Positions 15,020-33,060 of a DNA stretch of 64,000 nucleotides are shown here, one piece after another. Numbering within the stretch: the first letter of the stretch is position 1; each line of letters opens with the position of its first letter. The notes beneath the pieces were generated by a model that was not told the DNA's origin, did no database searches, and worked only from the letters and a program-made list of their open reading frames with translations. Origin of the DNA: an uncultured Bacilli bacterium (GTDB lineage: Bacteria > Bacillota_I > Bacilli_A > RFN20 > CAG-826); contig CAKPBC010000001.1 in NCBI GenBank assembly GCA_934140155.1, positions 422,542 through 486,541 of the forward strand, given 5' to 3'. The position numbers and the translations under genes were made by a program.

Positions 15020-15037
15020 AAACCTTTGCTCCTTTTA

Positions 15038-16996
15038 TTATAATGCGTTTATTTTTTTAGTTAGGTTAGGCCCTAACTTCGCAGTACCATAATTTGAAAA
15101 TGTAATAGATTCTTTTCCTTCGTAAGATTGATAACCATCTCCGACAGGACGACTATAGTTATATAAAATTTTTGTGATTTCGTTATTGCTATTTAAATTC
15201 ATTTTTAATGTATCAACAGTCATATAACTTAATGAAAAATCTGAGAAGAATTGTGGGAACATATAATTAGCAATATCAATTACATTGGTTTTAGGAACGA
15301 TAGTGTTACCATTAAGTGTAAATACTACAGAACTTAAGCTAAATCCAATGTAGTCATTTAATGTTTTTCCTACGATTCCTGAATTAAGTGCTTTTGGAGT
15401 CTTTTCTCCTTGATCGTTAGTTTCAACAGTAAATGGAATTACTTTTCCTTCTTTTTCAACAAAACCACGAGAACTAATAACAGTTGTAGATAGTTCTTCA
15501 TATTGTTCAAAGTAAACAATGTTATCAGCCACAATCATTTTAGTTTTTATATTTGTATAAGAACCATAATCTTCAATTATTGCTTCAAAATTGTTGCCAG
15601 ATTTAATTTTACTAAATGCTAGACTAATTTTATTATTATCTTCAATTTCTTTTTCGGTAGTAATAGTAAATGGTGCTGGTTCAATAATTGTTGGATTTTC
15701 TGAGAATGTTACTTTGATAAAAGTTGATATATAACTAGAATCTTCATCAGATACATTGCGATATAAAGCAACATTCATTTCTTTAATAGAATTATTTTCT
15801 ACTACAATGTCTAAACTCTTAATTGCCATTTCAAAGTTTAAATATGTTAATGAATAAAATAATGCTTCGCTATGATAACCAAAGTATCGATAAGTGTTGT
15901 CACTTATTTTTCGGAAGGCATTGTGATCAAACACATCACTAGGTTTAATTAAGTCATTCCAAGAAACATCAGATGCATCCTCAATGACTTCGTTTAAGCC
16001 ATTAATTCCTACAACAGTAGCGACATTTTCTTTGTTTTTATAAACATAAGAATAATTTCTATTATTTACAATATCATTAGTATCAATATTAATGAAATTA
16101 GCGTTATATTTTAAATCGCTATTTAAAATTGTTTCTTTTTCTTCATTACCAACTTGTTGTTCAACAACACTATGAGTGGCTAAAGAAGTAGAGGCAAATA
16201 AATTTTCACTAGATTCATTTAATGTTTCTTTAAAAGCAAAATCTTTTTTAAATTTCTCTAATGAATCTATTTTTGAACCATTAATATTTGAGAATTTTGC
16301 TGTTGTTACTTTCGAAGAATATTGTTCTCCGTTTTCATCTAATCCAGTCATGTAAATAGTGTATGAGATATCTCCGCTATTTAAGAAATCAAATGATACA
16401 CCAGATACTAATCCATTAAATACTAAACTAGAATAACCAACGGCAATTGTTAATAGGGAATTTAAGGTTACACTATTAGAGTAGTATTTACCATCAGTTT
16501 TGTTATAAATAAATGAATCATGAGAAATAAGATATCTTGGATCAGTTTTATCCGCTAACAAGGAAAAATAACTTATCTCGTTAATGCTATCTACATAATA
16601 TTTTTCAGTGGAAATACCATTTTCAGGCAATAGAAGGTTGATATTATTATTGTTTAATTCATAACGATACACAACATTGCCTTTTATTTCACTTTGGTCA
16701 TAATAAGGAAGAAGAACACCGCCATTATTTAAAATAGACATATAATAATACTCTTCATTAAATAAGTCATAACATTCTGTGCCTTCAATATCATAAGTCA
16801 AAGTGTAATTACCATGAAGACCAACATATGTTAAATATCGATATAAGTAATTTTCATTTTTTTCTTGAGGTAAGTAATTATAGAAATCAGAAGGTGTATT
16901 TTGATGCCCACTATTGCTTGTACTATTAGAAGGTTTAGAACAACCGGAAATAACAAAAATAGAACAAGCTAATAATATTTTTAATTTTGAATTCAT
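15038..16996 (-). CDS. Large surface lipoprotein, paralogue of the upstream gene
   Basis: Start refined to MNSKLKILLACSIFVISGC (RBS GAAGGGAG). Shares ...NAFRKISDNTYRYFGYHSEALFYSLTYLNFEMAIKSLDI... with ...NSLMKLDGNNFRYIGSDTFKLFNALTSAKSMGNLDI... in 17016-19355. Confidence 0.7.
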   Translation of the reverse strand: MNSKLKILLACSIFVISGCSKPSNSTSNSGHQNTPSDFYNYLPQEKNENYLYRYLTYVGLHGNYTLTYDIEGTECYDLFNEEYYYMSILNNGGVLLPYYDQSEIKGNVVYRYELNNNNINLLLPENGISTEKYYVDSINEISYFSLLADKTDPRYLISHDSFIYNKTDGKYYSNSVTLNSLLTIAVGYSSLVFNGLVSGVSFDFLNSGDISYTIYMTGLDENGEQYSSKVTTAKFSNINGSKIDSLEKFKKDFAFKETLNESSENLFASTSLATHSVVEQQVGNEEKETILNSDLKYNANFINIDTNDIVNNRNYSYVYKNKENVATVVGINGLNEVIEDASDVSWNDLIKPSDVFDHNAFRKISDNTYRYFGYHSEALFYSLTYLNFEMAIKSLDIVVENNSIKEMNVALYRNVSDEDSSYISTFIKVTFSENPTIIEPAPFTITTEKEIEDNNKISLAFSKIKSGNNFEAIIEDYGSYTNIKTKMIVADNIVYFEQYEELSTTVISSRGFVEKEGKVIPFTVETNDQGEKTPKALNSGIVGKTLNDYIGFSLSSVVFTLNGNTIVPKTNVIDIANYMFPQFFSDFSLSYMTVDTLKMNLNSNNEITKILYNYSRPVGDGYQSYEGKESITFSNYGTAKLGPNLTKKINAL

Positions 16997-17015
16997 ATTA
17001 GTAAGTCTCCCTTCA

Positions 17016-19526: not shown

Positions 19527-20618
19527 TTAATCGATTCCAAGTACATATTTAATTTTGCTTATTATATTTTTACAAGTTGATAATGATAATTTGAATTTAT
19601 AAGCTATATCAAGCAAGTCTTTTTCTTTAGGCAATCCATTACCATTTACTGTCATTTCGTGCTCGAATTTGTTTGGAGTACTTGTTATATCATAAGCTGG
19701 TGAAAGACGATAACCTTTTATATTTTCATCATAAATAAAGGAAAAATTTTTGCCATGATCATCACGATTATTGTAAAATACGTTAAAGCACATTCTTCGA
19801 TATGCTTCGTAAATATCACCTTTATCAGGACAAATGCTTTGGATTACTTGAAATAAATGGGAGTAATCTAAATTAGGTATTCTATGTGTTGTTTCAAGTA
19901 ATGCAGATAAAGAAATCATATGAACTCTTTTATTATCTTTGCGGTCAAATCTTTTCACGCCAAAATAGCCAGAGCATATTTTAGAAGGAAATAATTTAAA
20001 ATCATTTACATTTATGCCACATTTTTTTGCTAACTTGTTAGCGGTGTATTCTTGTTTACCAATATTTTTAGAGTCCATATAGCAAGGGAATTTAACAATC
20101 CATTCTTCATTATCTATGGCTATGTGTGCTTTTGGTCTTGCTCCTCCACTAGAACCACCAAGCATATAGATTTGGTCAAGATTATTAGTATTATCATCAT
20201 TTAAAATAGCGTTAGCTTCTTTAGCAATTTCATCTAAGTTTATATCTACGATAGTTTCGTTTTCTATTGGATTATTTGGCTCATATGTTAAAGCTCCAAG
20301 AGCGTTATTAGATATTATTGTAAGCTTTTGAATAGGTGATAAAGAATCTGGGTTTATTCCTTTTTTGACCAGCATTCTTCTAACCAATAATTCTCCCCAG
20401 CCGTCTGGTAAACTATCATTAAATACGCCGTATAATCCATCAAATGTTTGCTTAGTATTTATAAATACTTTATTTGTTAAAGGCAAAGAAAATGGAGATA
20501 TAGAAAAACCATGTTTAATCCATTCATCATTATATTGAAAAGCAATTCTTCCATCGTTTGTTTCAAGTAAATATCCGACTAGTTTATCATTATACATTAC
20601 ATTTAATTTTTTAATCAT
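19527..20618 (-). CDS. hipA: HipA-family serine/threonine kinase toxin (type II TA)
   Basis: N-terminal HipA_N-like LVGYLLETNDGRIAFQYNDEW; GGSSGGARPKAH loop; catalytic DDHGKNFSF (DxHxKNxS). Overlaps the upstream HTH gene by 4 nt. Confidence 0.85.
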   Translation of the reverse strand: MIKKLNVMYNDKLVGYLLETNDGRIAFQYNDEWIKHGFSISPFSLPLTNKVFINTKQTFDGLYGVFNDSLPDGWGELLVRRMLVKKGINPDSLSPIQKLTIISNNALGALTYEPNNPIENETIVDINLDEIAKEANAILNDDNTNNLDQIYMLGGSSGGARPKAHIAIDNEEWIVKFPCYMDSKNIGKQEYTANKLAKKCGINVNDFKLFPSKICSGYFGVKRFDRKDNKRVHMISLSALLETTHRIPNLDYSHLFQVIQSICPDKGDIYEAYRRMCFNVFYNNRDDHGKNFSFIYDENIKGYRLSPAYDITSTPNKFEHEMTVNGNGLPKEKDLLDIAYKFKLSLSTCKNIISKIKYVLGID

Positions 20619-20905
20619 AATTTATAGTCCTTTAAATTAGTTATTTGTTCATACTTAAATAAATTATTAAAATCTTCTAGACAATTCATTGCATGAGCAA
20701 TCTTGATTAATGAAGCAAGTGAAATGTCACCAGTAGTTTCAAATCTTCTAATAGAAGCATAGTTAACGCCAGATCTTTTGGCTAATTCTTTTTGGGTGTA
20801 TTTAAGTTCTTTTCGTCTTAGTTTGACTCTTTTTATTAATTTTTCCGTAATACTTGCTTCTGTTATCGTATCTACAAAGTCACTAATGTCAAATTTTCTT
20901 TCCAT
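20615..20905 (-). CDS. hipB: HipB-like XRE-family HTH antitoxin
   Basis: HTH: LRRKELKYTQKELAKRSGVNYASIRRFE. 96 aa. Translationally coupled to hipA. Confidence 0.75.
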   Translation of the reverse strand: MERKFDISDFVDTITEASITEKLIKRVKLRRKELKYTQKELAKRSGVNYASIRRFETTGDISLASLIKIAHAMNCLEDFNNLFKYEQITNLKDYKL

Positions 20906-21073: not shown

Positions 21074-21476
21074 GTGATCATTATAACTATTGATGAATTA
21101 TTATCATTAGATGTATTAAAAGTGGAAAATATTAAAGATAATTTGCATGCATATCAATTAGCCAAAAGATGTAACGAAAAACAAGTAATGTTTGAAGCGT
21201 GTCGATATAGTAAAGTTGGCGCAAGAATTAATTCTATTTCGCCAGGTATAATTGTTACCCAATTAGCGATTGATGCATTTAATGGACTGCGTGGAGATTT
21301 TTATAAAAATATGTTCGCTAATTGTCCTGTTAAAAGGTCAGGAACCGCTGATGAAATGGCAAAATGTTCTAGAACTATTAATGAGTGATAAAGGTGCATT
21401 TATTAAAGAATCTGATTTTTTAATTGATGGTGGCGCAACTGCAAGTTACTATTATGGAGATTTAAAGCTAATTAAA
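21074..21476 (+). pseudogene. Short-chain dehydrogenase/reductase (SDR) remnant: C-terminal region split over two frames
   Basis: Frame 1: ...ARINSISPGIIVTQLAID...RSGTADEMAKCS. Frame 2: ...IDGGATASYYYGDL*. These are the typical SDR C-terminal motifs with no N-terminal Rossmann portion, so the gene is frameshifted and truncated. Confidence 0.6.
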
Positions 21477-21896
21477 ATTCTTCGTTGCTAATGGTAATAT
21501 GTTCTATCAAAACTGGTCATTCAAAGTTAGAAGAGATGGTTTAGATGGCGATGCAGAAACAAAATACAAAACAAATTTTGAAACTAAATTTGCTGAATGG
21601 CAATTATCAGGAGGAGAAGACGCCTATATTGAATTAAAATACAAGCAATGACAAAACTAATAGAGGTACATTCTATGTAGAAACATCTGATGTTACTCTT
21701 GGTTTTGGTGGTTGGGACTTAGAATAATTTTTTGAAGTATTGCAAAATTTAATTTAATAGTTTTTACTTATATTAGTAACTAAAAGAGTCAGCAATTTGC
21801 TGACTTTTTTCGAAAAATATTATATTTTTTGTGCTAAAAAGCACATGATATTATTTGTAAAGTATAGTAAAATTATTTTTTAGCTAAGATTTTCTT

Positions 21897-22055
21897 GTAT
21901 ATCTTACCTCTAGTCCAGTATTAGGATGATGTCCAAGTTTTTCCACACCATTTTGGCCCTTCAATGCATATAGCGCCACTAACTTTAAGATATTGTTCGA
22001 TAACTTCGTCAATAATTCTTTTTTTATAGTCAGATTTATTTACAATTTTATCCAT
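21897..22055 (-). pseudogene. P-loop ATPase N-terminal fragment (44 aa then stop)
   Basis: MDKIVNKSDYKKRIIDEVIEQYLKVSGAICIEGPKWCGKTWTSS*; a Walker-A-like GPKWCGKT then premature stop; no intact downstream ORF. Confidence 0.45.
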
Positions 22056-22086: not shown

Positions 22087-22168
22087 TTAACTGAGCAATA
22101 TTTGCTAATCTAACTGAGCAATCTTTTAGAGAATAGGTGAGCAACTTTTTTAATATTTGCTGAGCAAT
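22087..22168. repeat. Four direct copies of (A/G)CTGAGCAA(T/C) spaced about 22-25 bp; two embedded in the inverted repeat AGCAA-TAT-TTGCT
   Basis: taaCTGAGCAATatttgct (22087), taaCTGAGCAATc (22111), gGTGAGCAAC (22137), gCTGAGCAATattt (22159). Lies between the decayed region and the 3' end of the SNF2 gene. Confidence 0.5.
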
Positions 22169-22183
22169 ATTTTGAAAAAACTA

Positions 22184-25100
22184 TTAATTAAGTAAGAATT
22201 TAATATCATCATGTGTCAATTGTAAAATTGATTTTTCATTGGATGATATAAGGGAATCTATTAAATCCTTTTTCATATTTTGTAATTCAATTACTTTTTC
22301 TTCAATTGAATTTTCACATATAAATTTTAAAACTGTGACATTGTTTTTTTGACCAATACGATGTGCACGATCTGTGGCTTGGTCTTGTACAGCGGCATTC
22401 CACCACGGATCAATATGAATGACCGTATCTGCACCAGTTAAGTTTAATCCATTTCCTCCGGCTTTAAGTGAAATTAAGAATAATGGTGTTTTATCATTAT
22501 TAAATTTGTCACATAATATGACTCTTTCTTCCGCTTTAGTTTCGCCAGTTAATAAATAATATTTGATTTTTTCTTTATTTAAATGATTTTCCACTATATT
22601 AAGTGCTTTAACAAATTGTGAGAAGATTAAAATTTTATGACCTTCTTTGATTAATGCGTTTATATAATCATAAATTAAGTCCATTTTTCCACTTTTTCCG
22701 GAATAATTTTCTATAAACATTGATGGTTCAACGCAAATTTGTCTTAAACGCATAAGGTATGGAAGTATTTCAAAAATACTACTAGATTGACCTAATGCTT
22801 TTTTGGCTACTTGACAATAAGCATCATATGCTTTTCTTTGTTCAGTCGTCATTTCTGCTTCAATAACGCGTTCAATCTTGTCTGGTAAATCATTAAGAAC
22901 ATCTTTTTTTGTTCTTCTTAAAATAAATAAAGAGACACGTTTTGCTATCATATTTTTATATTCTTCTTCGGTTTCAAAACGCTTTTTAAACACATCAATA
23001 TCATCTAAGTATCCAGGCATTAAGAAATCAAATATTGACCATAGTTCGAGTGCACTATTTTCAATAGGAGTACCAGTTAAAGCAAAGCGATGATTAGATT
23101 TTATTTGCTTTACAGAACGTGATTTTTTAGAAGTAAATGTTTTAATAGCTTGTGCTTCATCAAGTATTAAATATTGGAAAGTGTAATTATATTTTTCTAA
23201 ATCAATTCTTAATGAATCATAAGAAGTAATATAAATTACATGTTCGTTTGGTTTAATATTATTTATAATTTGTTTTCTTTCTTCTTGGGTGCCAAAGATT
23301 TTAATTACCTTGGTATTTGGATCAAATTTAAGAAATTCATTATACCAGTTAAATATTAAACTTTTTGGACAAACAATTAACGAAGGTACATTAGTTTTAT
23401 CAATATTTAATAAAGCAATAGTTTGTAAGGTTTTACCTAAACCCATATCATCAGCAAGAATACCACATAAATTATGTTTAACTAAGGTGGCCATCCAGTT
23501 AACCCCATCAATTTGATAATCACGTAATTTGGCATTAATATTAGATAAATCAAGTTTGTTATTTTTAAAATCTTTAACTTCATCAATAACCTTTATAAAA
23601 TAATCTTTAACTTTGTTATCTTCAATAGCGTTAATTGCTTTAAATGCATTATAAAAATTAGTTTTTTGTTCATTAGTTAATTTAGTTTTATCTAGTCTTA
23701 ATCCTTCGGATATGTTATAAAATTCTTGAGCATTTTCATTTTGAATATTGATAATTTGGTTATTTTTTAGTTGTACAAATTTCTTTTTCTTTTTAAGAGC
23801 GTTATATATTTTTTCTAGTTCTTCATTACTAAAAGAAGATTCTGCCCAAAATGCTTCAATCATGCTAGATCCATAATCAATTCTTAAATTTTGCTTTGGA
23901 AAATTAATAATATTTTTAGTTTTAATATGCTCGGATAAATAAATTGTACAAATACTTTGAAGTGGTGATATATCAGCAATTAGAAAATTATAAATATCCT
24001 CATCTTTTTCAATTTTATTGTCAACAAATTTGAAACTCTTAAATAAATTATCTATAAAATTAAGATTTTCAACTGTAATCTTACTATATTTGCTTTCTTC
24101 AATAGGTAAACCATTTTCTTTTACAATTATCTTTTTTGTTAATATATTTTCTTCCATATCAATATAAATTTCAATATTTTGATAATTTTCACTTAATTTA
24201 TTAATTGATTCAGGAATAGAAATAAGTTCTTCATTTCCTTTATAAATATACTTAAGGAAGAATTCTTCGTTATTTTCAATATCGTTTTCATTAAAAGATA
24301 AAAAGAAATCTAATATTGAGTTAATTTGTTCTCCGCCTTTTATTAAAGAAAGTGTTTTATTTAATTTGTCTATATAATAAACACCATCTTTGGCGTAAAT
24401 CAAATCTTGTCTTGCGATAGTAGGAGACATTGTTATTACTTTATTTTCATCAATGCTAAATTTAATTTCTTTTTCTTCTTTATTTAATGAATAAAATATC
24501 TTTTCATAATAAATACCATTATATAAGTGAATTAGCCTTGTTAATCCTTCTTCATTTAAATATATATTAGAAAAACGTGATCCGTAATCATTATTAAAGC
24601 CACGTACTAAAAAACAAGTTAACAAAATATTTATTAATTCTTTACTGAATTCATCAAATCCTTTTAGTGAACAATTAAATTTATATTCTTTATAAACATC
24701 AAGAGTTTCTTCGTTTCTAACTGCATTCATAAAGTCCATAACATAGTGGACTTTGTATAACTTTTGCTTGCCAATATAAACGTTGATATTAGCGTACTCA
24801 TTTAATTCGATTCTTATTCTCATTTTTTCTTCGCTTAATATTTTTAAAGCAATTTTGCTAGTTTTATTTTTACTTTGGTCTAATAAAAATGTGCGCATTT
24901 CATCTTGGACAATTTTCTTTTTAGCATTATTACATTTAGCAAAAGTATCCTCAATCATTTTGTTTAACTTGTCTGATGTGGCGGATTCGCAGATTTTAGT
25001 TAACATTGCAAAATATTTTTTTATTATTGGATTTGTTTCATCTAAACCACCATAGTCAATTTCCTTCCAATAATAATAGCTAAACTTATCTTCATCATTA

Positions 25101-26596
25101 ATATAAATACAATTTAAAAAATCAAAACTAGGTTCAGAAACTTCAAGAAAATATTCATCATCATAAATCTCTTCGTCACGGTTGATGACATTAAATTTAA
25201 AATATTCATCAAATTTTGAAAAATCGATATGTTTGGTTCTTTCAATAGCGTCATTAATGCGTGCTTTTATAAATGTTTTATTATTAGAAATATTTAAAAA
25301 TAGCAAAGCATAATAAGAAGCATCTTGAAACTCACACAAGCAGTCGTATAAGTTACAATCATAAGAAAAAAAATATCTTTTATCGACTAATTCAAATAAT
25401 TGCTCAATGTAATGCTTAGCATTTTTTTCTAATTTATCAATATTAGCTTTGATAAATTTTAGTCTTTCATTATCGTTGAATTGACTAAAATATTCAACCC
25501 CATCTTCATAGTCAATAACGGAATAATCTAAATCAATTAAGTATGGCTTAGCTCGATGTATGGCAAGCATTTGTTCTGCACTTAGTGAAGGTTTAATGGC
25601 ATTAACTGTTTCTTTAGAAAAGGCGTTATTATTAATTATTAAATTAGTAATAGTGGAAGCATCTTCTTTACTTAAATTACATAATGGAATCAAAGAATTT
25701 AAACTACTAGTAAAATCATAATATTTATAGTCTTCATTATATAAAGCAAAGTGAAGTATAGAATCATAATTTTCTTCAAATAAATCGTTTAATAAACTAT
25801 AAAAATTATCTTTTTCTAGTTTGTGACTAGCGTTTCGATAATTGGTGGCTTCTTTAATATTTGATTCATAAAAATTTTTCATCGCAGTATTATTAGAAAT
25901 CGAATTTAAATAAGTATTTAAATTATTTTTTTTATTTAAATCTAAATATAAATATATGATATTAAAAGCATTAATATCAGATTTAGAATAAGATGTTTCT
26001 AAAAGAGGTTGTATAAGATTATCAGCTAATTTATTATCTAAATATTTTTTAAGCTCATTAAATGATTTAAAACTTAAAAATAAAAATGTTGGTGAACGAT
26101 AAGTACTTACTTTTTTTATTTGATTATATATATCTAAAGCAGGAGAATTATAATTAGAGACATAAAAACTATAAATTTTATCTAAGACACGATAAACATG
26201 TTTACATTTAAATCCAACAGGGCAAGAGCAATCACCAAGTAGATTAGGATGAGAATATTTAATTTTAACATCATATTGTGTGTCGTAAGATGAAGACATC
26301 ACTTTAGCACTTATTTCATTTGAAGAAACAAATTGTATGGATGACAAGTCGAATTGCAATTTTGATGCCCGCTCTTTTGTGATTTTATCAAAATCATTTT
26401 TGTAACTTCCGTCTATAATATATTTTTCGAATTCATCTGATAAGGTAATTAAAAAAGGATTATTCTCAATTCCAGTTACATTATTAATAATATGAACACC
26501 ATCCAAAAATCGAATTGACAAAAGTATATTATTATTTTGAATTGGCTCAATAACACCTAATTTAAATAATTTATGATATACAAGAATATGCCCCAT
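22184..26596 (-). CDS. Giant SWIM zinc-finger / SNF2-family (DEAD-like) helicase, 1470 aa
   Basis: Start refined to MGHILVY (RBS AAGGGGTGA). SWIM: DCSCPVGFKCKHVYRV at ~aa 125. Helicase motifs: GILADDMGLGKTLQTIALL (I), LILDEAQAIK (II), ALTGTPIEN (III), TVIHIDPWWNAAVQDQATDRAHRIGQKNNVTV (VI). About 850 aa between SWIM and helicase core has no recognisable motif. Confidence 0.85.
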   Translation of the reverse strand: MGHILVYHKLFKLGVIEPIQNNNILLSIRFLDGVHIINNVTGIENNPFLITLSDEFEKYIIDGSYKNDFDKITKERASKLQFDLSSIQFVSSNEISAKVMSSSYDTQYDVKIKYSHPNLLGDCSCPVGFKCKHVYRVLDKIYSFYVSNYNSPALDIYNQIKKVSTYRSPTFLFLSFKSFNELKKYLDNKLADNLIQPLLETSYSKSDINAFNIIYLYLDLNKKNNLNTYLNSISNNTAMKNFYESNIKEATNYRNASHKLEKDNFYSLLNDLFEENYDSILHFALYNEDYKYYDFTSSLNSLIPLCNLSKEDASTITNLIINNNAFSKETVNAIKPSLSAEQMLAIHRAKPYLIDLDYSVIDYEDGVEYFSQFNDNERLKFIKANIDKLEKNAKHYIEQLFELVDKRYFFSYDCNLYDCLCEFQDASYYALLFLNISNNKTFIKARINDAIERTKHIDFSKFDEYFKFNVINRDEEIYDDEYFLEVSEPSFDFLNCIYINDEDKFSYYYWKEIDYGGLDETNPIIKKYFAMLTKICESATSDKLNKMIEDTFAKCNNAKKKIVQDEMRTFLLDQSKNKTSKIALKILSEEKMRIRIELNEYANINVYIGKQKLYKVHYVMDFMNAVRNEETLDVYKEYKFNCSLKGFDEFSKELINILLTCFLVRGFNNDYGSRFSNIYLNEEGLTRLIHLYNGIYYEKIFYSLNKEEKEIKFSIDENKVITMSPTIARQDLIYAKDGVYYIDKLNKTLSLIKGGEQINSILDFFLSFNENDIENNEEFFLKYIYKGNEELISIPESINKLSENYQNIEIYIDMEENILTKKIIVKENGLPIEESKYSKITVENLNFIDNLFKSFKFVDNKIEKDEDIYNFLIADISPLQSICTIYLSEHIKTKNIINFPKQNLRIDYGSSMIEAFWAESSFSNEELEKIYNALKKKKKFVQLKNNQIINIQNENAQEFYNISEGLRLDKTKLTNEQKTNFYNAFKAINAIEDNKVKDYFIKVIDEVKDFKNNKLDLSNINAKLRDYQIDGVNWMATLVKHNLCGILADDMGLGKTLQTIALLNIDKTNVPSLIVCPKSLIFNWYNEFLKFDPNTKVIKIFGTQEERKQIINNIKPNEHVIYITSYDSLRIDLEKYNYTFQYLILDEAQAIKTFTSKKSRSVKQIKSNHRFALTGTPIENSALELWSIFDFLMPGYLDDIDVFKKRFETEEEYKNMIAKRVSLFILRRTKKDVLNDLPDKIERVIEAEMTTEQRKAYDAYCQVAKKALGQSSSIFEILPYLMRLRQICVEPSMFIENYSGKSGKMDLIYDYINALIKEGHKILIFSQFVKALNIVENHLNKEKIKYYLLTGETKAEERVILCDKFNNDKTPLFLISLKAGGNGLNLTGADTVIHIDPWWNAAVQDQATDRAHRIGQKNNVTVLKFICENSIEEKVIELQNMKKDLIDSLISSNEKSILQLTHDDIKFLLN

Positions 26597-26801
26597 CGTA
26601 TCACCCCTTAACATATTATTCTAACATTTAGAGTAAGCGAAATAAAATATTATTAAAAATTTTTTCTTTAAGAAAAACATCATAAAGCGTTTACATAAAT
26701 AAATGCTTGTAAAATTGTTGAATAATGAATAAAAAATACTTGCAAAGAGATTTTTGTAATGTTAATATATTTGCAATTAAAAAACGAAAGAGGAAATAAT
26801 T

Positions 26802-28994
26802 ATGAAACGAAAAAGTTGTTCTTTTTTGGCATTATTTTTGGCATTTTCTTTATTCTCATGTGCCAATGATAATTCCGTAAATTCTGGTTCTATAGAACCA
26901 TCTGTTAGTGCTAGTACCACTAATAGTGTATCTACTTCTAGTGGATCCACTTCATCTTCAGGATCTCAAACAAGTGTATCCACATCAACAAAACCTAGCA
27001 CATCAACAAAACCTAGCACAAGCAATTCTGTCTCAGCAAGTACAAGCACAGTTAGTACTGATGCAGTAAAAAAAGCAATTGAGAAAGCAGTAACTAAGAC
27101 TGATTTGATTGCTAGTGGCAATGTTACTATAAGTTCAAAAGATGATTGGACTAATGAATCAAACGAAAGTATATTTGAATTTGGTAAAGATTCTAATGGT
27201 GCTACACTGCATTATACTGGTAAAGATTATAGTGGAGAATATGATATGTATTTATTAACTGATACTGATGGTAGCGTTGTGGCAATTCAAAAATCTAAAA
27301 CTGATGGTTCGATAACAAAGCCATATGATGAATTTGATTCTATTGGTTTTCGCTTTAGTAATGTATTAAGCTATTCTGCTAGTTTTATCGGCGTGGAAAA
27401 TTTAGTACAAGGTTTATATGGCTATGGTATGCAAAATGTAAATAAAGATTTTAAATATCAAGTTGATAATGGAAAATATTCTTTTTCATTTGGATATTTT
27501 GAATCATTAGATGCTTGGCAATTCTTAAAAGTTAGTTGTGAATTTACTATTGGAGACAAAGAAGAATTTAGTAGTGTTAATGTTACAATTGACTCATATA
27601 GTCAATCTAGCTTTATGGTTGATGATGAACTAGGAGTAATTCAATTAAATAGCGATGCAAAAGCATCAAGCGTTAAAAAAATTGAAATTAGTCAAAAAGC
27701 AGGCGCTAGAACATTTGTGTCACCAATTTCATTAAGTTCACTTAAAGCAGCATCATTTGATGTAATGTTTGATGGTAAAGTAGTTGCTAGTGGCGAAACT
27801 ATTAAAGTAGCAAAAGGAGAAACTATTAATTTGTCATTATCTAATGTTGCTCCTGAAACTGCTAGTTTTGCTTTTGATGAGCCACAAATTACTGCTTCAG
27901 AAGGTTTGATTTTAGGATTTAGCTCATTTAATAATTCTATAAATGGAACTCCAAATGTGGTTGGTAAGTTTGATGTTTCTATAAAAACTGCGAATGTCAC
28001 TAAATCATTTAAAGTTGAAGTAACAGAAGCACAACCAAAATCTATTTCTTTATCTTACTTCACTGTAGCACCAAAAGGATACAACTCTTATGTTTTAGCT
28101 AATAATAAGTTTGATGGCTTTGTTGGTGTTGAATACATTGTTAAAGCTGGTATATTACCAGATGCTGCAAATCAAAACGTCAATGCTTCAATCGATGGTG
28201 TTGATTCATCTAAATATGAATTAACTAAAAAACAAATTAAGGTCCATGAATGGATGGATGAATATGATGTTTGGAGTTTTGTGGCAAAAGAAAGTGGAGA
28301 TTATGCAATTACTTTTGCAAGCGCCGTTAATGCAAATATAAAAGAAGTTGTTAATGTCCATGTTAGTGCTGCTCCAACTTTTGCAGAAGTATTGTCATCC
28401 GCTAAATTTGGAACTAAACAAGGCAATAGTGTCAAATATCAAGTTGAATTTGTTCCTACTGGAACTGGTGAAACAGGTGTAGTAACAATTAAAGACAATT
28501 TATCTTCAAAAGAAGAAGTAGCAAGTTACGTTATAAGCAAAGGTGAAAAATGTTACAATTTTGCTTTAACACATGTAAGTGGAGATACATTAGAAATACA
28601 ATTAGTTATGTCGTTTGATTTCTCTTTATCATATTACAATTCTGAATGGGATATGTATGAAGCACTTAGTAAAATTACTCCAGAATTCTTAGTCGCAGGA
28701 TCAACATATGATGGTGCAACAAACTCTGGTGAACATACTCTTACGATTAACTTAATGAGTAATAATGAAGCAAGTTTATTATTAGATGAAGTGTTCTCAC
28801 AATCTTTGAATTGTGCTTTCTCATTAAAAGAAGAAGGAGATCATTATGTTGGAACATTTACTTCAACTTCTTCAGAAGCTTCATTTGTAACATTACCATT
28901 ATCATTTACTCTCTCAAAAGATATGACTACATTAACTGTTTCATTTGAAATTGATGGAAATGTAGAAACATTTACTTGTTCAAGAAGTGAATAA
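26802..28994 (+). CDS. Large surface lipoprotein with Ser/Thr-rich linker and Ig-like repeats
   Basis: MKRKSCSFLALFLAFSLFSC lipobox; linker STSSGSTSSSGSQTSVSTSTKPSTSTKPSTS; repeated beta-sandwich-like segments. Confidence 0.7.
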   Translation: MKRKSCSFLALFLAFSLFSCANDNSVNSGSIEPSVSASTTNSVSTSSGSTSSSGSQTSVSTSTKPSTSTKPSTSNSVSASTSTVSTDAVKKAIEKAVTKTDLIASGNVTISSKDDWTNESNESIFEFGKDSNGATLHYTGKDYSGEYDMYLLTDTDGSVVAIQKSKTDGSITKPYDEFDSIGFRFSNVLSYSASFIGVENLVQGLYGYGMQNVNKDFKYQVDNGKYSFSFGYFESLDAWQFLKVSCEFTIGDKEEFSSVNVTIDSYSQSSFMVDDELGVIQLNSDAKASSVKKIEISQKAGARTFVSPISLSSLKAASFDVMFDGKVVASGETIKVAKGETINLSLSNVAPETASFAFDEPQITASEGLILGFSSFNNSINGTPNVVGKFDVSIKTANVTKSFKVEVTEAQPKSISLSYFTVAPKGYNSYVLANNKFDGFVGVEYIVKAGILPDAANQNVNASIDGVDSSKYELTKKQIKVHEWMDEYDVWSFVAKESGDYAITFASAVNANIKEVVNVHVSAAPTFAEVLSSAKFGTKQGNSVKYQVEFVPTGTGETGVVTIKDNLSSKEEVASYVISKGEKCYNFALTHVSGDTLEIQLVMSFDFSLSYYNSEWDMYEALSKITPEFLVAGSTYDGATNSGEHTLTINLMSNNEASLLLDEVFSQSLNCAFSLKEEGDHYVGTFTSTSSEASFVTLPLSFTLSKDMTTLTVSFEIDGNVETFTCSRSE

Positions 28995-28999
28995 TTATT

Positions 29000-30436
29000 A
29001 TGAAGAAAAAGTTTATATTTTTAGGTTTAATTTGCTCCATCATTGCTTCTTGTGATGGGGCAAACATCAAGCCTAGTGCTGGTTTATTAAATAATAATCT
29101 TATTTTAAGTAATACTACTGAATATAAAGAAGCCAAATCAACAAGCGCAATAGGAAATAAAAAACTATTAGTTATTCCTTTTGAATTTCAAGGAGAAAGA
29201 GAATTTCAAGATAGTGACTTAGAAAAGATTAGAAAAGCCTTTTTTGAACCAAAATTATCAACAAGCGGAAATGCTTATTATTCTTTAACAGAATATTATG
29301 AAAAAAGCAGTTTAGGAAAAGTTCATATTAGTGGTGATGTTGCTCCGGTATTAAAAGTTCCACATACTGTGGACGAACTTACTAAAGATGGTAATTATTT
29401 TCCAGGAGTCCCAGCTTATGAATATTTAAATAATGCCGGCGTTAGTGATGAATATTTGTCTTCTTTTGACCAAGATAAAGACGGTTATATTGATGCGGTT
29501 GTATTTGTTTATTCTTCTCAAACTTCAGAGCGTAGTGGAAACTTTTGGGCTTGGGTTTCAACATTCGATGCTGAACCAAACCTTACAAGGCCTCAATTTG
29601 CTAGACATATGTGGGTTGGCTTAGATTTCTTTTCTACATCTAATTATGAAATTGATGCACACACTATTATCCACGAAACAGGACATTTGTTTGGATTAAG
29701 GGATTATTATCCTAGTGATAACTATAATGTTGCCTTAGGTGGGCATTCAATGATGGATTATAACATTTCTGACCATGATCCGTATTCTAAAATGCTATTA
29801 TCTTGGTTAGATCCAATTTACTATGATTTTAAAAATTATAGAGAGATTACTTTAAATTTAAAAACATTCGAAGAAAATAATCAAGTTTTGCTCTTGAATA
29901 ATTCTTGGAATCATTCGGTTATGGATGAATATTTATTAATTGAATATTATACTTCTACGGGAGTAAATGAATTAGATGCTAAAAATAAATATGATAGTCG
30001 ACCATTAGGATTTACTAAAAACGGAATTAAAATATATCATGTCGATAGTCGTATCGCTAAATGCCATTATGATAAAACTCAATATGCGGTTGTTTTCGAT
30101 GAATATGTTAACGAAATTCCTGAAACTTATGCGGATGATATATATTATTTGATAGGGGCATCTAATAATAATCAAGATTCAAGAACAGATGCTTCTAGAC
30201 AAGGAAGGTATAAACAAGTTGCTTTAATAGAAAACAAACAATATAACAAATTACAAGCTGGAGAAAGTGCGGATGATGATTCACTATTTTATGAAGGCGA
30301 TATATTTGATTCCTCTACATCTCCATACTTATTAAATGGCAATTGGAATAATGGCACAGCAATTAATTTTACTATTTCAGTAGATAAATTAACTAGTGAG
30401 TATGCCACAATTACTATAAACTTTAAGGGGGAATAA
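29000..30436 (+). CDS. Lipoprotein Zn-metalloprotease, M6 (immune-inhibitor-A)-like HExxH...GLxD domain
   Basis: MKKKFIFLGLICSIIASC lipobox. Zincin motif AHTIIHETGHLFGLRDYY matches the M6-domain signature HExGHxLGLxDxY. 5 nt after the upstream lipoprotein gene. Confidence 0.55.
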   Translation: MKKKFIFLGLICSIIASCDGANIKPSAGLLNNNLILSNTTEYKEAKSTSAIGNKKLLVIPFEFQGEREFQDSDLEKIRKAFFEPKLSTSGNAYYSLTEYYEKSSLGKVHISGDVAPVLKVPHTVDELTKDGNYFPGVPAYEYLNNAGVSDEYLSSFDQDKDGYIDAVVFVYSSQTSERSGNFWAWVSTFDAEPNLTRPQFARHMWVGLDFFSTSNYEIDAHTIIHETGHLFGLRDYYPSDNYNVALGGHSMMDYNISDHDPYSKMLLSWLDPIYYDFKNYREITLNLKTFEENNQVLLLNNSWNHSVMDEYLLIEYYTSTGVNELDAKNKYDSRPLGFTKNGIKIYHVDSRIAKCHYDKTQYAVVFDEYVNEIPETYADDIYYLIGASNNNQDSRTDASRQGRYKQVALIENKQYNKLQAGESADDDSLFYEGDIFDSSTSPYLLNGNWNNGTAINFTISVDKLTSEYATITINFKGE

Positions 30437-30441
30437 GATAT

Positions 30442-33060
30442 ATGAAGAAATCTTTAAAATTATGTTTATTACCAGTAACTTTATCAATTATGTTAACTGC
30501 TTGTAATAATCAAAGTAATTCTATTTCAGATTCAAGTTCTAACTCTATTTCAACTTCTTCATCAATAGATGTTAGTAAAATTTCTTTAAAAGACGCTATT
30601 GCAAATACGAGAGAATATACTTTGCAAACAAAAACTTTTGATGATTCATTTATGACTTTCCAAGTATTTAGTGATAACTTTTATTATTATGCACCAAATA
30701 TTGGCGGATACATCGTGATTGACGATGATCCGGAATATGTTCATGCTTTTGATGTTGTATCAATTGATAGTGATTTGATTTTTAAAACTAAAATAGATGT
30801 TTTAGGTAGAAACGGCTTAATTGATCAAAAAGGATATTTATTTACTACAAATTTTTTAGATATTATGAGAGTATACGCTGACGATTTTGTAAGAATCAGC
30901 GACAATACATTTTGTTGTTCGGTAAAAGATCTATCTTCTCATCTTAAAGATTATTTTCAAAATAAAAACTTATCTTATGCCAACTATTTTGAAATTGTTA
31001 TTGGTAACGATGGACGTGTATCTCGCTTTATTCCTTATGAAAAAACAACTGCAGATATGTACTCATTAGGCGAAGTTTATTTTTCAACATTTAATTTAGA
31101 AGATTATGAACCATATAAATTATGGGATCAAGAAGGAAGAAAAATTAATACACGTTTATATGACTTAAAGATGGGATATTTTGCCGAAGATAACAAAACA
31201 TATATTCCTTTTTATAAAGATGAACAAGTTGTAGTTGAAGGCGTAGTATCATCATTCGATGTTAATAACAATGTTTATATTAGTGTAGAAAGTCTTACAT
31301 TAGGCAATGTAGGAATTCAAGTTCGATTGTCTAAAAAAGATACATTACCAAAAATAAATGAACTTATAAAAGTACAAGGAACAATAGCTTGTGATAATTA
31401 TGTTTCATTAATTAAAGATGCAACATTTACTGTAATTGAAGAACAAGATTATTTCCCATATTTTGACGAAGAGCCAATCGCAGATATTTATGGCTCCGGA
31501 TATTACGCGGCAAATTTTTTCTCTCAATCACCTGTGTTTGGAGACTCTATTTATTCAACTGCAGCTTATATCTATGAAGATTTCGAAAGTAATTTGGTAG
31601 AAAATAAAAATGTTGAAATAGATATGATTTGCCCAGCAATACCTTCTAGTGATAAAAAAGACTATTATCATATGAAGTTGGTTTTACCAACAAATATGCC
31701 ACTTGAAAAGAAGAATCAAATCCTTCAATCATTAAAAGAATATGGAATCTATGGTAATGAAGATGCGAAAGAGATATTACTAGATAAGTTTATTATTAGA
31801 ATCGATCCGACATATTTTTACGCTGTAAAATTAGAATATGGCTCTGAAAGTTCTATTTCTTTACAACTTTCTCCAACTGAAAAAGTTGAAAAAATTGTTG
31901 GTATTAAAAATTTTGAATTTTCAAAGTTAACTGATTATTCTTGCTATCGTTTTGGCGGACATACTGCGATGAGTTTAGAAGAAGTGTATGGAAAAGATGG
32001 AAAAACGATGGGAGTTTACTATCAATCATCATCAATGACACAAAAAGAATATGATGCTCAAGTTAAAAATATTGAAAGCATAGGCTTTAAAAAGTTTAAT
32101 GAAATAAAAGATGAATATAAACGTAGGCACATTATTTATCAAAAGGATACTTATTATGTAGATCTATTTACACAAGAAGATACTTTTGGCGAAGATGGTT
32201 CGATGGTATTCAATATGTGGATATATAAGGGAGAATTGATTTATAGCAAAACAGTTCAAGAGCAATTAAAAGAATCTATACCATTCTTCAACGTGGATGA
32301 TTTTATTCAAATGGATGGAGTATATGATGCAGACTTAAACTATTTTGAATTAACAAGTTATGCTGGAAAAGAATATAAAAATGATGAGCGTATTGCTTGT
32401 GTTACGATAAATACTAATAGTGATATTTTTTCAGAATTACGTTCAAAGTATAGAACTGAAAAAGGATATACCGCTGTCAGAAATAGTGACAATTCTATTT
32501 ATACTTATAATACGCGTGGAAGTAACCATTATGTATTTTCAAAGGCGATAGATGGTAGTAATGAAAAAGTATATTTAGATATGGCTTTATATTCTACAGA
32601 TGATTATACATATGCTGGTCATAAAGATTTCACTAATAGAATTGAAATTGCAATATATAAAGGAACTGAGCCATTATCAACAACTTATTTAGATAATTTA
32701 AATGAATTTGGAAAACGCTTTGGCGAAAAAAATGGTGTAGATGCTTTAACATTTAACTTACCAGCAAATACAAAAGTAGAAATGTATTATTGCGCAGATA
32801 AAGATATTAAATATAGTTTCTTAGAATATGGTTATTTGTATCAAGATGAAGCATTTGTTTATAGTGATTCGTTAAATGAAACATATAATGCAATAATTAG
32901 TTCTTTAGAAGCACAAGGATATAAAATATCTACAACAACCGCAAAAGGTAATGTATGTTACGTAAAGCAAGATGGCAAGGTCAGTGCGTATATATTTATT
33001 ATGAAAAGTGATAAAGGATATATACGATTAATTGATGGTGTTGGCGGATTGGATTATTAA
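30442..33060 (+). CDS. Large lipoprotein (872 aa), unknown function
   Basis: MKKSLKLCLLPVTLSIMLTAC lipobox, Ser-rich linker, RBS AAGGGGGAA. Terminator with UUCG tetraloop (AGAGGAC-TTCG-GTTCTCT-TTTTG) at 33062-33086. Confidence 0.7.
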   Translation: MKKSLKLCLLPVTLSIMLTACNNQSNSISDSSSNSISTSSSIDVSKISLKDAIANTREYTLQTKTFDDSFMTFQVFSDNFYYYAPNIGGYIVIDDDPEYVHAFDVVSIDSDLIFKTKIDVLGRNGLIDQKGYLFTTNFLDIMRVYADDFVRISDNTFCCSVKDLSSHLKDYFQNKNLSYANYFEIVIGNDGRVSRFIPYEKTTADMYSLGEVYFSTFNLEDYEPYKLWDQEGRKINTRLYDLKMGYFAEDNKTYIPFYKDEQVVVEGVVSSFDVNNNVYISVESLTLGNVGIQVRLSKKDTLPKINELIKVQGTIACDNYVSLIKDATFTVIEEQDYFPYFDEEPIADIYGSGYYAANFFSQSPVFGDSIYSTAAYIYEDFESNLVENKNVEIDMICPAIPSSDKKDYYHMKLVLPTNMPLEKKNQILQSLKEYGIYGNEDAKEILLDKFIIRIDPTYFYAVKLEYGSESSISLQLSPTEKVEKIVGIKNFEFSKLTDYSCYRFGGHTAMSLEEVYGKDGKTMGVYYQSSSMTQKEYDAQVKNIESIGFKKFNEIKDEYKRRHIIYQKDTYYVDLFTQEDTFGEDGSMVFNMWIYKGELIYSKTVQEQLKESIPFFNVDDFIQMDGVYDADLNYFELTSYAGKEYKNDERIACVTINTNSDIFSELRSKYRTEKGYTAVRNSDNSIYTYNTRGSNHYVFSKAIDGSNEKVYLDMALYSTDDYTYAGHKDFTNRIEIAIYKGTEPLSTTYLDNLNEFGKRFGEKNGVDALTFNLPANTKVEMYYCADKDIKYSFLEYGYLYQDEAFVYSDSLNETYNAIISSLEAQGYKISTTTAKGNVCYVKQDGKVSAYIFIMKSDKGYIRLIDGVGGLDY

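What the first reader, a model, noticed from the sequence alone, without database searches (positions are those of the whole stretch)
22184..26596. Unusually large (1470 aa) SWIM-SNF2 helicase with a ~850-aa uncharacterised central region, in an accessory neighbourhood
The protein has an N-terminal SWIM zinc finger (CSCPVGFKCKHVYRV) and a complete C-terminal SNF2 ATPase core (motifs I, II DEAQ, III, VI all present). The bacterial SWIM-SNF2 proteins I know of are only about 900-1100 aa, so roughly 400 extra residues of Asn/Lys/Tyr-rich sequence between SWIM and helicase are unexplained. The gene sits next to HipBA, a ~1-kb stretch of decayed gene fragments and a direct-repeat array. That is typical of variable defence islands, where SNF2 helicases also occur (for example DISARM DrmD), though no partner genes are present here.
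Basis: partly seen in the sequence, partly recalled or inferred. Interest (0 to 1): 0.55.

Follow-up and report, generated by a model that had tools for sequence, protein, structure and literature searches.

The report
Long SWIM-SNF2 helicase with helical insert
This is a chromosomal, conserved member of a widespread but poorly studied bacterial SNF2 motor-protein family; it is about 400 residues longer than usual because an all-helical segment with no detectable relatives sits just after its zinc finger, and nothing ties it to an anti-phage defence system.

Summary
The ORF is real: 22184-26596 (-), 1470 aa, with a good ribosome-binding site. It has a SWIM motif (C123/C125/C131/H133) and a complete SNF2 ATPase core.

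The "850-aa uncharacterised" centre is overstated. Residues ~662-1015 are the Pfam SNF2_assoc domain, and residues 560-661 are the family's usual post-SWIM linker. The unexplained part is about 415 aa (146-559).

That insert found only its own 50%-identity cluster among 1.84 billion representative proteins. It is under purifying selection (dN/dS 0.14-0.21) with no indels across three 1470-aa orthologues. AlphaFold2 predicts it all-alpha, but with low confidence.

Among 64 complete family genes the median length is 1078 aa. Two MAG proteins (1444 and 1530 aa) have an unrelated-looking insert at the same site. In two other MAGs the same layout is split into overlapping SWIM-protein and SNF2 genes within a housekeeping block.

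In three gut lineages (86-100% identity) the gene keeps its place next to a lipoprotein operon and asnA. Only the 3' flank decays (HipBA, gene remnants). No defence partner genes were found.

Verdict: a new architectural variant of a known family, most likely a DNA translocase acting on protein-DNA complexes. Modest interest.

The parts
22184..26596 (-). Gene for the 1470-aa SWIM-SNF2_assoc-SNF2 helicase (stop codon 22184-22186)
   Evidence: ORF list and translation. RBS AAGGGGTGA at 26601-26609. Domain hits. Exact protein present in NCBI, ENA and Logan assemblies.
26405..26596 (-). N-terminal extension, residues 1-64, absent from short-form relatives
   Evidence: The short-form N-terminal profile starts matching only at residue ~90 of the query and ~70 of L011. 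SWIM lies at ~120 in the long forms against ~45-80 in most short forms. The fold is unknown (pLDDT 22-34).
26162..26404 (-). SWIM N-domain, residues ~65-145 (zinc ligands C123, C125, C131, H133 at 26198-26230)
   Evidence: Pfam SWIM 122-139, 17.9 bits. hhalign to the L011 SWIM region, E 9.5e-5. blastp to the stand-alone SWIM protein of L045, E 1.8e-4. Profile match, E 9e-5. Ligands conserved in orthologues.
24920..26161 (-). Lineage-specific insert, residues ~146-559, predicted all-alpha, no detectable homologues
24614..24919 (-). Family-typical post-SWIM linker, residues 560-661
   Evidence: Positions 106-212 of the short-form N-terminal profile match residues 560-661, E 2e-9. The NCBIfam NF053675 alignment starts at residue 607.
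23552..24613 (-). SNF2_assoc domain (Pfam match 702-1015; domain probably starts near residue 662)
   Evidence: PF08455, 68.6 bits, profile positions 35-370 of 373. AF2 pLDDT is about 80 for residues 800-1000. No solved structure matches this part by sequence.
22718..23518 (-). SNF2 ATPase lobe 1 (SNF2-rel_dom, residues 1027-1293; motif I 1045-1056, DEAQ 1146-1149)
   Evidence: PF00176, 220.7 bits. Invariant motif columns. Best PDB match is the Sulfolobus Rad54-like core 1z63, E 7.7e-89.
22352..22687 (-). SNF2 ATPase lobe 2 (Helicase_C, residues 1304-1415; motif VI 1406-1416)
   Evidence: PF00271, 96.2 bits. Invariant QATDRAHRIGQ.
22091..22173 (.). Four copies of (C/G)TGAGCAA(T/C) about 23 nt apart, between the helicase stop codon and the AAA_14 remnant (context, not part of the gene)
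   Evidence: TRF period 23, 3.6 copies, 67% matches. Sequence read. The region is 92% conserved in L004.
21924..22055 (-). Remnant (first 44 codons) of an AAA_14/DUF4143 ATPase gene that is intact in the 86% lineage (context)
   Evidence: tblastn gives 97.7% identity over 44 aa to the L004 protein. The L004-L007 gene is annotated.
19527..20905 (-). hipB-hipA toxin-antitoxin pair (context, variable flank)
   Evidence: Pfam HTH_3, Couple_hipA and HipA_C. hipA is truncated in L004.
26802..33060 (+). Divergent three-gene lipoprotein operon (730, 478, 872 aa), the conserved neighbour of the helicase in all three lineages (context)
   Evidence: Signal peptide plus Cys lipobox and S/T-rich linkers. 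No Pfam or PADLOC hits. Synteny shown.

Best explanation
The gene encodes a vertically inherited chromosomal member of the bacterial SWIM / SNF2_assoc / SNF2 helicase family. This is the family of the streptococcal pilus-repressing Snf2 and, from memory of its domain architecture, of B. subtilis YwqA.

Shown:
- The layout is N-terminal extension (1-64), SWIM domain (65-145), a ~415-aa insert (146-559), the family's usual linker (560-661), SNF2_assoc (~662-1015), and an intact SNF2 ATPase (1016-1470).
- The extra length comes from the insert placed directly after the SWIM helix plus the N-terminal extension.
- The insert is a constrained, non-repetitive, Gly/Pro-poor segment with no detectable homologues.
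- The same site is expanded in related proteins, and the gene is cut into two translationally coupled genes in others.
- The gene keeps its length and position in three lineages while its 3' flank decays.

Inferred:
- The protein works as an ATP-driven double-stranded-DNA translocase. It would remodel or displace protein-DNA complexes, most plausibly RNA polymerase or a transcriptional repressor complex, by analogy with YwqA and the pneumococcal Snf2.
- The SWIM and SNF2_assoc parts would provide substrate recognition.
- The helical insert would act as a species-specific protein-interaction or autoregulatory scaffold.
- It is not a component of a defence system.
For: Architecture: (split match of the short-form N-terminal profile: residues 90-199 and 560-661).

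Intact catalytic motifs. ATPase core closest to the SsoRad54, ISWI and Snf2 cores.

Insert:
- Only its own cluster was found in 1.84e9 representatives.
- dN/dS is 0.14-0.21 against 0.04-0.05 for the ATPase, with no indels at dS 0.35-0.6.
- It is predicted all-alpha, and the only fold similarity is generic alpha-solenoid.

Family survey:
- Median length is 1078 aa in 64 genes.
- The query clade, L011 (1444 aa) and L009 (1530 aa) group together in 79/100 NJ bootstraps.
- With the split pair L045/L061 and the short form L010 they form a clade in 57/60 bootstraps.
- Split genes overlap by 14 nt with an internal RBS. They lie in a block with an LPG_synthase_TM-domain gene, a GT4 glycosyltransferase, recX and a YhaM-like gene that is conserved between two MAGs.

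Synteny and flank decay. No mobile or viral relatives.

Function by analogy:
- YwqA was enriched 19-fold in a PcrA pull-down that also recovered RNA polymerase subunits (PMC3797733).
- YwqA is listed as an RNAP interactor believed to backtrack RNAP (PMC10804225, PMC7385302).
- A pneumococcal Snf2-family protein represses pilus genes (Basset 2017, cited in PMC8465756 and PMC7899983).
Against: - No experiment or structure exists for any long-form member, and the functional analogy rests on distant relatives. NF053675 scores 504 bits against a cut-off of 1100. YwqA's membership of this architecture is recalled, not tested here.
- The AF2 models are low-confidence (mean pLDDT 44.8 and 50.1), so 'helical scaffold' is tentative.
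'Core gene' status therefore rests on three closely related lineages.
- One MAG carries both a long and a short form (L011 and L013). The long form may be a paralogue with a different job from YwqA-type proteins.
- Rapid divergence of the insert between lineages would also fit an arms-race role.
Confidence: 0.6

Rival explanations
1. The long form arose by fusing (or the split form by fissioning) a two-gene unit: a ~500-aa SWIM protein plus a SWIM-less SNF2 gene. On this view the 'insert' is the helical body of a separable targeting subunit, and the inserts of the query, L011, L009, L045 and L061 share one origin. This concerns origin and is compatible with the main functional explanation.
For: - L045 and L061 have exactly this two-gene layout. 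The break falls inside the extra region: the SWIM domain plus ~385 aa in gene 1, then ~112 extra aa followed by the usual linker in gene 2.
- The summed lengths (1568 and 1562 aa) resemble the long forms (1444-1530 aa).
- All belong to one clade in 57/60 bootstraps.
- A collinear YYALLFL / FYALLFL / FDALLFL motif is present.
Against: - No significant similarity exists between the inserts. hhalign scored 17.4 against a shuffled mean of 14.4 +/- 2.1, and 5 of 60 shuffles reached it. The L011 and L009 inserts scored within the shuffled range against the split-form profile.
- blastp, hmmsearch and hhalign were negative.
- A short form with a contiguous N-terminus (L010) nests inside the clade. Long plus split forms without L010 were never monophyletic, 0/60. 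This implies either a loss or two independent gains.
- Other lineages expanded the same site by clearly different routes: a charged coiled coil in P0004 and tandem SWIM domains in L068, L073 and L075.
Confidence: 0.35
2. It is a stand-alone or orphaned anti-phage / anti-plasmid SNF2 helicase sitting in a defence island.
For: - Toxin-antitoxin and abortive-infection genes are nearby: HipBA at 19527-20905 and AbiEi/AbiEii at 34762-36677.
- The 3' flank is variable and decaying.
- PADLOC DpdE and ZorD models hit strongly, up to E 1e-128.
- The insert diverges very fast between lineages.
Against: - The PADLOC hits cover only residues ~920-1465, the generic motor.
- The curated NCBIfam defence models are far below cut-off: ZorD 199/1500, DrmD 75/950 and 56/610, DpdE 45/500 bits.
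- No partner genes are present.
- The gene itself is fixed in length and position in three lineages, under purifying selection.
- Its one recurrent neighbour, AAA_14/DUF4143, has been reduced to 44 codons here while the helicase stays intact.
- The long-form loci L009 and L011 share no neighbours with the window.
- The split-form relatives lie in a housekeeping block.
- There are no relatives on plasmids, phages or viral contigs.
Confidence: 0.1
3. The extra 415 residues are non-functional filler: an AT-driven expansion, or a decayed remnant tolerated as a linker.
For: - The genome is very AT-rich (GC about 27%) and the segment is N/K/Y/I-rich.
- AF2 confidence is low.
- No homologues were found.
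Against: - dN/dS is 0.14-0.21 and there is not a single indel in 414 codons at dS 0.35-0.6.
- The segment has no internal repeats and is not low-complexity.
- Gly and Pro are depleted, and a regular series of about 20 helices is predicted.
Confidence: 0.05
4. The insert is an intein or another selfish in-frame element.
For: Some SNF2 helicases carry inteins. An 'intein-prone helicase' NCBIfam model gives a short hit.
Against: - That hit covers only motif I (residues 1017-1055), not the insert.
- No Hint, intein or homing-endonuclease domain appears in Pfam.
- The insert lies outside the catalytic core, after the SWIM helix, and is predicted all-alpha.
Confidence: 0.02

Closest known systems
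Short-form bacterial SWIM / SNF2_assoc / SNF2 helicases (about 1020-1150 aa; B. subtilis YwqA is cited from memory as the studied example)
   Same: They share the same domain order and are collinear from residue 560 to the C-terminus. The SWIM CxCxnCxH motif, SNF2_assoc domain and intact ATPase motifs are all present. Identity is 33-43% over 600-930 residues.
   Different: The gap between SWIM and SNF2_assoc is about 530 aa instead of about 125-135 aa. There is an extra ~60-aa N-terminus. Total length is 1470 aa against a median of 1078 aa.
Streptococcal pilus-expression-regulating Snf2 helicase (NCBIfam NF053675; pneumococcal Snf2, Basset et al. 2017)
   Same: It is the best-scoring curated model. 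It aligns collinearly, query 607-1469 to profile positions 143-1026 of 1029, E 8.8e-151.
   Different: The score is 504 bits against an equivalog cut-off of 1100, so the query is not an equivalog. The N-terminal 606 residues are not covered. No pilus genes lie in the window.
Long-form relatives in MAGs: L011 (Erysipelotrichaceae SUG151, 1444 aa) and L009 (MAG labelled Lachnospiraceae, 1530 aa)
   Same: SWIM lies at about residue 105-135, a 355-480-aa Gly/Pro-poor segment sits at the same site, and collinear homology then runs to the end (43% and 38% identity over ~870 aa). They group with the query in 79/100 bootstraps.
   Different: The inserts show no detectable sequence similarity to each other. 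Their gene neighbourhoods are unrelated.
Split SWIM-protein + SNF2 gene pairs (L045 Bacilli MAG; L061 Erysipelotrichaceae MAG)
   Same: The overall collinear layout is the same, with extra sequence after the SWIM domain. They fall in the same larger clade, 57/60 bootstraps.
   Different: There are two polypeptides (499/501 aa and 1069/1061 aa) encoded by genes that overlap by 14 nt. Their context is housekeeping: recX, a YhaM-like gene and glycolipid-synthesis genes.
E. coli RapA/HepA (RNA-polymerase-recycling SNF2 ATPase)
   Same: It has an SNF2 ATPase core, and the proposed mode of action on RNA polymerase is the same. The literature calls YwqA a RapA homologue (PMC3797733, PMC10804225).
   Different: No RapA model appears among the NCBIfam hits. 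RapA has no SWIM or SNF2_assoc domain (from knowledge). A CarD/TRCF-like RNAP-interacting domain at the N-terminus was looked for and not supported.
Defence-system SNF2 helicases: DISARM DrmD, Zorya ZorD, Dpd DpdE
   Same: They share a homologous SNF2 motor.
   Different: All curated models are far below cut-off and cover only the motor. No DrmABC/MII, ZorABC or DpdA-C partner genes are present. The query lacks the ZorD-type nuclease. The gene is syntenic and of fixed length across lineages.

Membership tests
Bacterial SWIM / SNF2_assoc / SNF2 helicase family | SNF2 ATPase core with intact motifs I, II (DExQ), III and VI | tested here: met
   PF00176 scores 220.7 bits and PF00271 scores 96.2 bits. 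Motif columns are invariant.
Bacterial SWIM / SNF2_assoc / SNF2 helicase family | SNF2_assoc (PF08455) domain immediately N-terminal to the ATPase | tested here: met
   68.6 bits against a cut-off of 27; residues 702-1015 match profile positions 35-370 of 373.
Bacterial SWIM / SNF2_assoc / SNF2 helicase family | N-terminal SWIM zinc finger (CxCxnCxH) | tested here: met
   The motif C123-x-C125-x5-C131-x-H133 is conserved in orthologues. Pfam scores 17.9 bits, just under the 19.6 cut-off. The family N-terminal profile matches at E 9e-5 and hhalign gives E 9.5e-5.
Bacterial SWIM / SNF2_assoc / SNF2 helicase family | Short (~125-135 aa) linker between SWIM and SNF2_assoc; total length ~1000-1150 aa | tested here: not met
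   The gap is about 530 aa and the total is 1470 aa, against a median of 1078 aa. This is why it is filed as a variant.
Streptococcal pilus-regulating Snf2 (NCBIfam NF053675 equivalog) | Whole-protein score at or above the curated cut-off (1100 bits) | tested here: not met
   504 bits.
B. subtilis YwqA-type RNAP-associated translocase | Physical association with RNA polymerase | not testable with these tools
   Only literature on YwqA is available (PMC3797733, PMC10804225). No YwqA sequence was available here for a direct comparison.
RapA/HepA | Match to a RapA model or RapA-type N-terminal RNAP-binding domains | tested here: not met
   No RapA family appears among the NCBIfam hits at E <= 0.1. 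Tests for an N-terminal CarD/TRCF-RID were negative.
DISARM (DrmD) | DrmD equivalog score, plus DrmA/DrmB/DrmC and a methylase nearby | tested here: not met
   NF038318 scores 75 bits against 950 and NF038317 scores 56 against 610. None of the ten neighbouring proteins scanned matched a Drm model.
Zorya type I (ZorD) | ZorD equivalog score, Mrr-like nuclease domain, and ZorA/ZorB/ZorC nearby | tested here: not met
   NF041790 scores 199 bits against 1500, covering only residues 907-1422. No nuclease domain was found and no ZorABC genes.
Dpd (DpdE) | DpdE equivalog score plus the dpdA-C deazaguanine-modification genes | tested here: not met
   NF041062 scores 45 bits against 500. The PADLOC DpdE hits cover only the C-terminal motor. 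No dpd genes are nearby.

The most novel reading that the evidence does not exclude
The SWIM domain plus the fast-evolving helical insert may form a separable, species-specific targeting subunit of a two-part remodeller, as it literally does in the split-gene relatives. Its extreme divergence between lineages, combined with purifying selection within a lineage, could reflect co-evolution with a changing target. That target could be foreign DNA-bound proteins or mobile-element factors. On this reading the long or split SWIM-SNF2 proteins would be a previously unrecognised single-gene or two-gene genome-defence or silencing system that happens to be chromosomally fixed.
Probability: 0.1. Interest if true: 0.6.

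Novelty: new variant of a known kind. Interest (0 to 1): 0.3.

Why it matters
SWIM-SNF2 helicases are among the most widespread SNF2 proteins in Bacillota and Actinomycetota, yet they have almost no biochemistry and no solved structure outside the motor.

This case shows that the junction just after the SWIM helix is a recurrent site of architectural change. It carries orphan helical inserts of 350-480 aa, a charged coiled coil, tandem SWIM domains, and even a split into two translationally coupled genes.

That gives natural domain boundaries for experiments. It also suggests that the SWIM module and the motor can work as separate subunits. As a defence-system lead, however, the finding is essentially negative.

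Tried and rejected
1. The word-indexed homologue search with the insert alone returned nothing, not even the query's own cluster. This is a tool limitation with AT-rich words. The exhaustive search replaced it. A second indexed search with the family alignment added no new members.

2. The AF2 model of residues 1-1020 was poor (pLDDT 44.8), and a Foldseek search against the PDB gave nothing at E <= 0.001. The afdb50 library was unavailable.

4. I thought the first ~50 residues resembled a CarD/TRCF RNAP-interacting Tudor domain. The only trace is a sub-threshold Pfam hit in L011 (E 0.15). A profile search of PDB sequences found no CarD or Mfd. Rejected.

5. Homology between the query insert and those of L011, L009 and the split SWIM proteins was not significant in blastp, hmmsearch, or hhalign with shuffled controls.

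6. An upstream partial ORF in L010 carries an 'FYLFNFL' motif and looked like a remnant of a split SWIM protein. But the L010 helicase has a contiguous short-form N-terminus, so this was dropped.

7. The two flanking lipoprotein triplets are not an inverted duplication.

8. The promoter scan is uninformative in this AT-rich DNA: 50 sites found against 41.6 expected.

9. The organism could not be named.

Full report
OBSERVATION. The window has an ORF at 22184..26614 on the minus strand (1476 aa). The ATG at 26596 is preceded by AAGGGGTGA at a 5-nt spacing, and most database copies are called at 1470 aa. Pfam finds SNF2-rel_dom (1027-1293, 220.7 bits), Helicase_C (1304-1415, 96.2 bits), SNF2_assoc PF08455 (702-1015, 68.6 bits) and a just-sub-threshold SWIM (122-139, 17.9 vs 19.6 bits). 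The SWIM ligands C123, C125, C131 and H133 are kept in the orthologues. Helicase motifs I, II (DEAQ), III and VI are invariant in a seven-sequence alignment. By sequence, only the ATPase core has solved relatives. The best is the Sulfolobus Rad54-like core 1z63, followed by ISWI, Snf2, INO80 and others.

WHAT THE "UNCHARACTERISED CENTRE" IS. I built a profile from the N-termini of 39 ordinary ("short-form") family members. It matches the query in two separated pieces. The SWIM-domain part of the profile aligns to residues 90-199 (E 9e-5). The post-SWIM linker part aligns to residues 560-661 (E 2e-9). The NCBIfam model of the streptococcal pilus-regulating Snf2 aligns collinearly from residue 607 to the end. 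The protein is therefore a normal family member with an insertion of about 415 residues (146-559) directly after the SWIM helix, plus about 60 extra residues at the N-terminus. In typical members the gap between SWIM and SNF2_assoc is about 125-135 aa (P0005, P0006). Here it is about 530 aa.

FAMILY SURVEY. A scan of species-representative genomes returned 80 loci, all at 43% identity or less. Full ORF lengths of 64 complete genes have a median of 1078 aa and a maximum of 1530 aa. This sample is biased towards the query's closest relatives.

Two MAG proteins share the query's layout: L011 (Erysipelotrichaceae SUG151, 1444 aa) and L009 (labelled Lachnospiraceae, 1530 aa). In both, SWIM lies near residue 105-135, 355-480 Gly/Pro-poor residues follow, and collinear homology then runs to the end. 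They group with the query clade in 79/100 NJ bootstraps on 843 columns of SNF2_assoc plus ATPase. Yet the three inserts show no detectable similarity to each other.

In two further MAGs (L045 and L061) the same collinear layout is divided into two genes that overlap by 14 nt, with an RBS inside the upstream gene. The first gene encodes a 499/501-aa protein made of the SWIM domain plus ~385 extra residues. The second encodes a 1069/1061-aa SNF2 protein with ~112 extra residues followed by the usual linker. The long forms, the split forms and one short form (L010) make a clade in 57/60 bootstraps. Long plus split forms without L010 were never monophyletic. A single origin with one loss and two independent gains therefore cannot be told apart.

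Other lineages lengthened the same site differently. P0004 (1351 aa) carries an E/K/R coiled coil. L068, L073 and L075 (1294-1459 aa) carry tandem SWIM domains. The junction after the SWIM helix is a recurrent site of expansion.

CONTEXT. In all three lineages the gene is transcribed divergently from a three-gene operon of large lipoproteins (730, 478 and 872 aa). These have a lipobox Cys and S/T-rich linkers and no Pfam hits, and asnA follows them. The 3' side is the variable part. The window and the 93% lineage have gene fragments and hipBA. The 86% lineage has an intact AAA_14/DUF4143 ATPase gene and only the 3' part of hipA. The window still carries the first 44 codons of that ATPase gene at 21924-22055. 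The flank has therefore decayed in different ways while the helicase stayed intact.

PADLOC on ten neighbouring proteins finds only AbiEi/AbiEii, 8 kb away beyond asnA and itself replaced in the 93% lineage, plus weak HipA and HTH hits. On the helicase itself, PADLOC DpdE, ZorD and DrmD models hit only residues ~920-1465. The curated NCBIfam versions are far below cut-off. The long-form loci L011 and L009 share no neighbours with the window. The split pair lies in a block with an LPG_synthase_TM-domain gene, a GT4 glycosyltransferase, recX and an HD/OB (YhaM-like) gene that is conserved between two very divergent MAGs. GC content is uniform across the region, and there is no tRNA or Rfam element.

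HOW IT MOST LIKELY WORKS. The following are shown: an intact SNF2 motor, the family's SNF2_assoc and SWIM modules, a constrained insert, and a fixed chromosomal position. The following are inferred. Like other SNF2 enzymes, the protein translocates on double-stranded DNA using ATP and remodels or removes bound proteins. The closest studied relatives point to transcription. B. subtilis YwqA was enriched 19-fold in a PcrA pull-down that also recovered RNA polymerase subunits, is listed as an RNAP interactor, and is thought to promote backtracking (PMC3797733, PMC10804225, PMC7385302). A pneumococcal Snf2-family protein represses pilus genes (Basset et al. 2017, cited in PMC8465756 and PMC7899983). 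The insert most plausibly serves as a species-specific protein-interaction or autoregulatory scaffold between the SWIM module and the motor. The split-gene relatives suggest that the two halves can be separate subunits held together through this region. I put about 0.6 on this overall picture, about 0.1 on a defence role, and less on filler or selfish-element explanations.

COMPARISON AND NOVELTY. The protein meets the defining features of the SWIM / SNF2_assoc / SNF2 family except the usual short linker and length. It is not an equivalog of the streptococcal regulator (504 vs 1100 bits). It is not RapA, and it is not DrmD, ZorD or DpdE. It is best filed as a new architectural variant (a long form) of a known but poorly characterised family. 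The finding is modestly interesting for understanding that family and is largely negative as a defence-system lead.

LIMITS. It is a human-gut metagenome scaffold of about 0.81 Mb with GC about 27%. The gene's nearest relatives are from Bacilli and Erysipelotrichaceae MAGs. Whether the genome also has a short-form paralogue, as MAG SUG151 does (L011 plus L013), could not be checked. Structure models are low-confidence. The trees are NJ only. YwqA's architecture is recalled, not tested.

Noticed in passing
window 21924-22055 (-); L004 14541-15830 and 16084-16490: The first 44 codons (97.7% identical) of an AAA_14/DUF4143 ATPase gene survive just downstream of the helicase. In the 86% lineage that gene is intact (429 aa), but hipA is reduced to its 3' part. 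This is reciprocal decay of the same flank.
   Followed up: yes
window 21074-21660 (+): There is a 104-aa fragment of a short-chain dehydrogenase (adh_short_C2) and further short ORF pieces between hipB and the ATPase remnant. They look like decayed genes.
   Followed up: partly
window 22091-22173: Four copies of (C/G)TGAGCAA(T/C), about 23 nt apart, lie in the spacer between the helicase stop codon and the start of the ATPase remnant. The spacer is 92% conserved in L004, where the ATPase gene is intact. It may be an operator or promoter element of that gene.
   Followed up: partly
window 34762-36677 (-): A complete AbiEi/AbiEii abortive-infection toxin-antitoxin pair is present (PADLOC E 2.5e-75 and 3.1e-106). 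It is replaced by a HATPase_c_4 gene in the 93% lineage (L003), marking a second variable spot beyond asnA.
   Followed up: partly
window 13055-19355 (-) and 26802-33060 (+): Six large lipoproteins (478-872 aa; the second gene on the minus strand is 668 aa as an ORF and called at 652 aa) have a lipobox Cys, Ser/Thr-rich linkers and no Pfam or PADLOC hits. The 478-aa one has an HETGH metalloprotease-like motif. Only the 652- and 779-aa proteins are distant paralogues.
   Followed up: partly
L045 7930-12625; L061 7249-11926: A SWIM protein (about 500 aa) and a SWIM-less SNF2 gene overlap by 14 nt, with an RBS inside the upstream gene (GAGG..ATGTTTCT in both MAGs). The downstream block, with an LPG_synthase_TM-domain gene, a GT4 glycosyltransferase, recX and an HD/OB (YhaM-like) gene, is conserved between the two MAGs.
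   Followed up: yes
L011 and L013 (both from MAG JALEMY01, Erysipelotrichaceae SUG151): One MAG carries both a long-form (1444 aa) and a short-form (1033 aa) SWIM-SNF2 gene, so long forms may be paralogues rather than replacements.
   Followed up: no
L011 2374-5223: A PRiA4_ORF3-like gene ends 10 nt before the long-form helicase, and an AAA_14/DUF4143 ATPase gene lies 1.5 kb upstream. The same ATPase family also neighbours the helicase in the query lineage. This may be chance, given how common that family is.
   Followed up: no
L068, L073, L075; P0004: There are other routes to long SWIM-SNF2 proteins. L068, L073 and L075 have two tandem SWIM N-domains (1294-1459 aa). P0004 has a ~300-aa E/K/R-rich coiled coil right after the SWIM finger (1351 aa).
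   Followed up: partly
P0054 (923 aa) and P0053 (470 aa), one ENA contig of 12.5 kb: One assembly of the same species has the helicase gene broken by a frameshift near codon 908. This is either an assembly error or a strain-level pseudogene.
   Followed up: no
window 4496-7618 (+): A 1040-aa glycoside hydrolase family 3 protein has its domains in permuted order. The GH3 C-terminal domain is at residues 90-369 and the GH3 N-terminal domain at 745-965.
   Followed up: no
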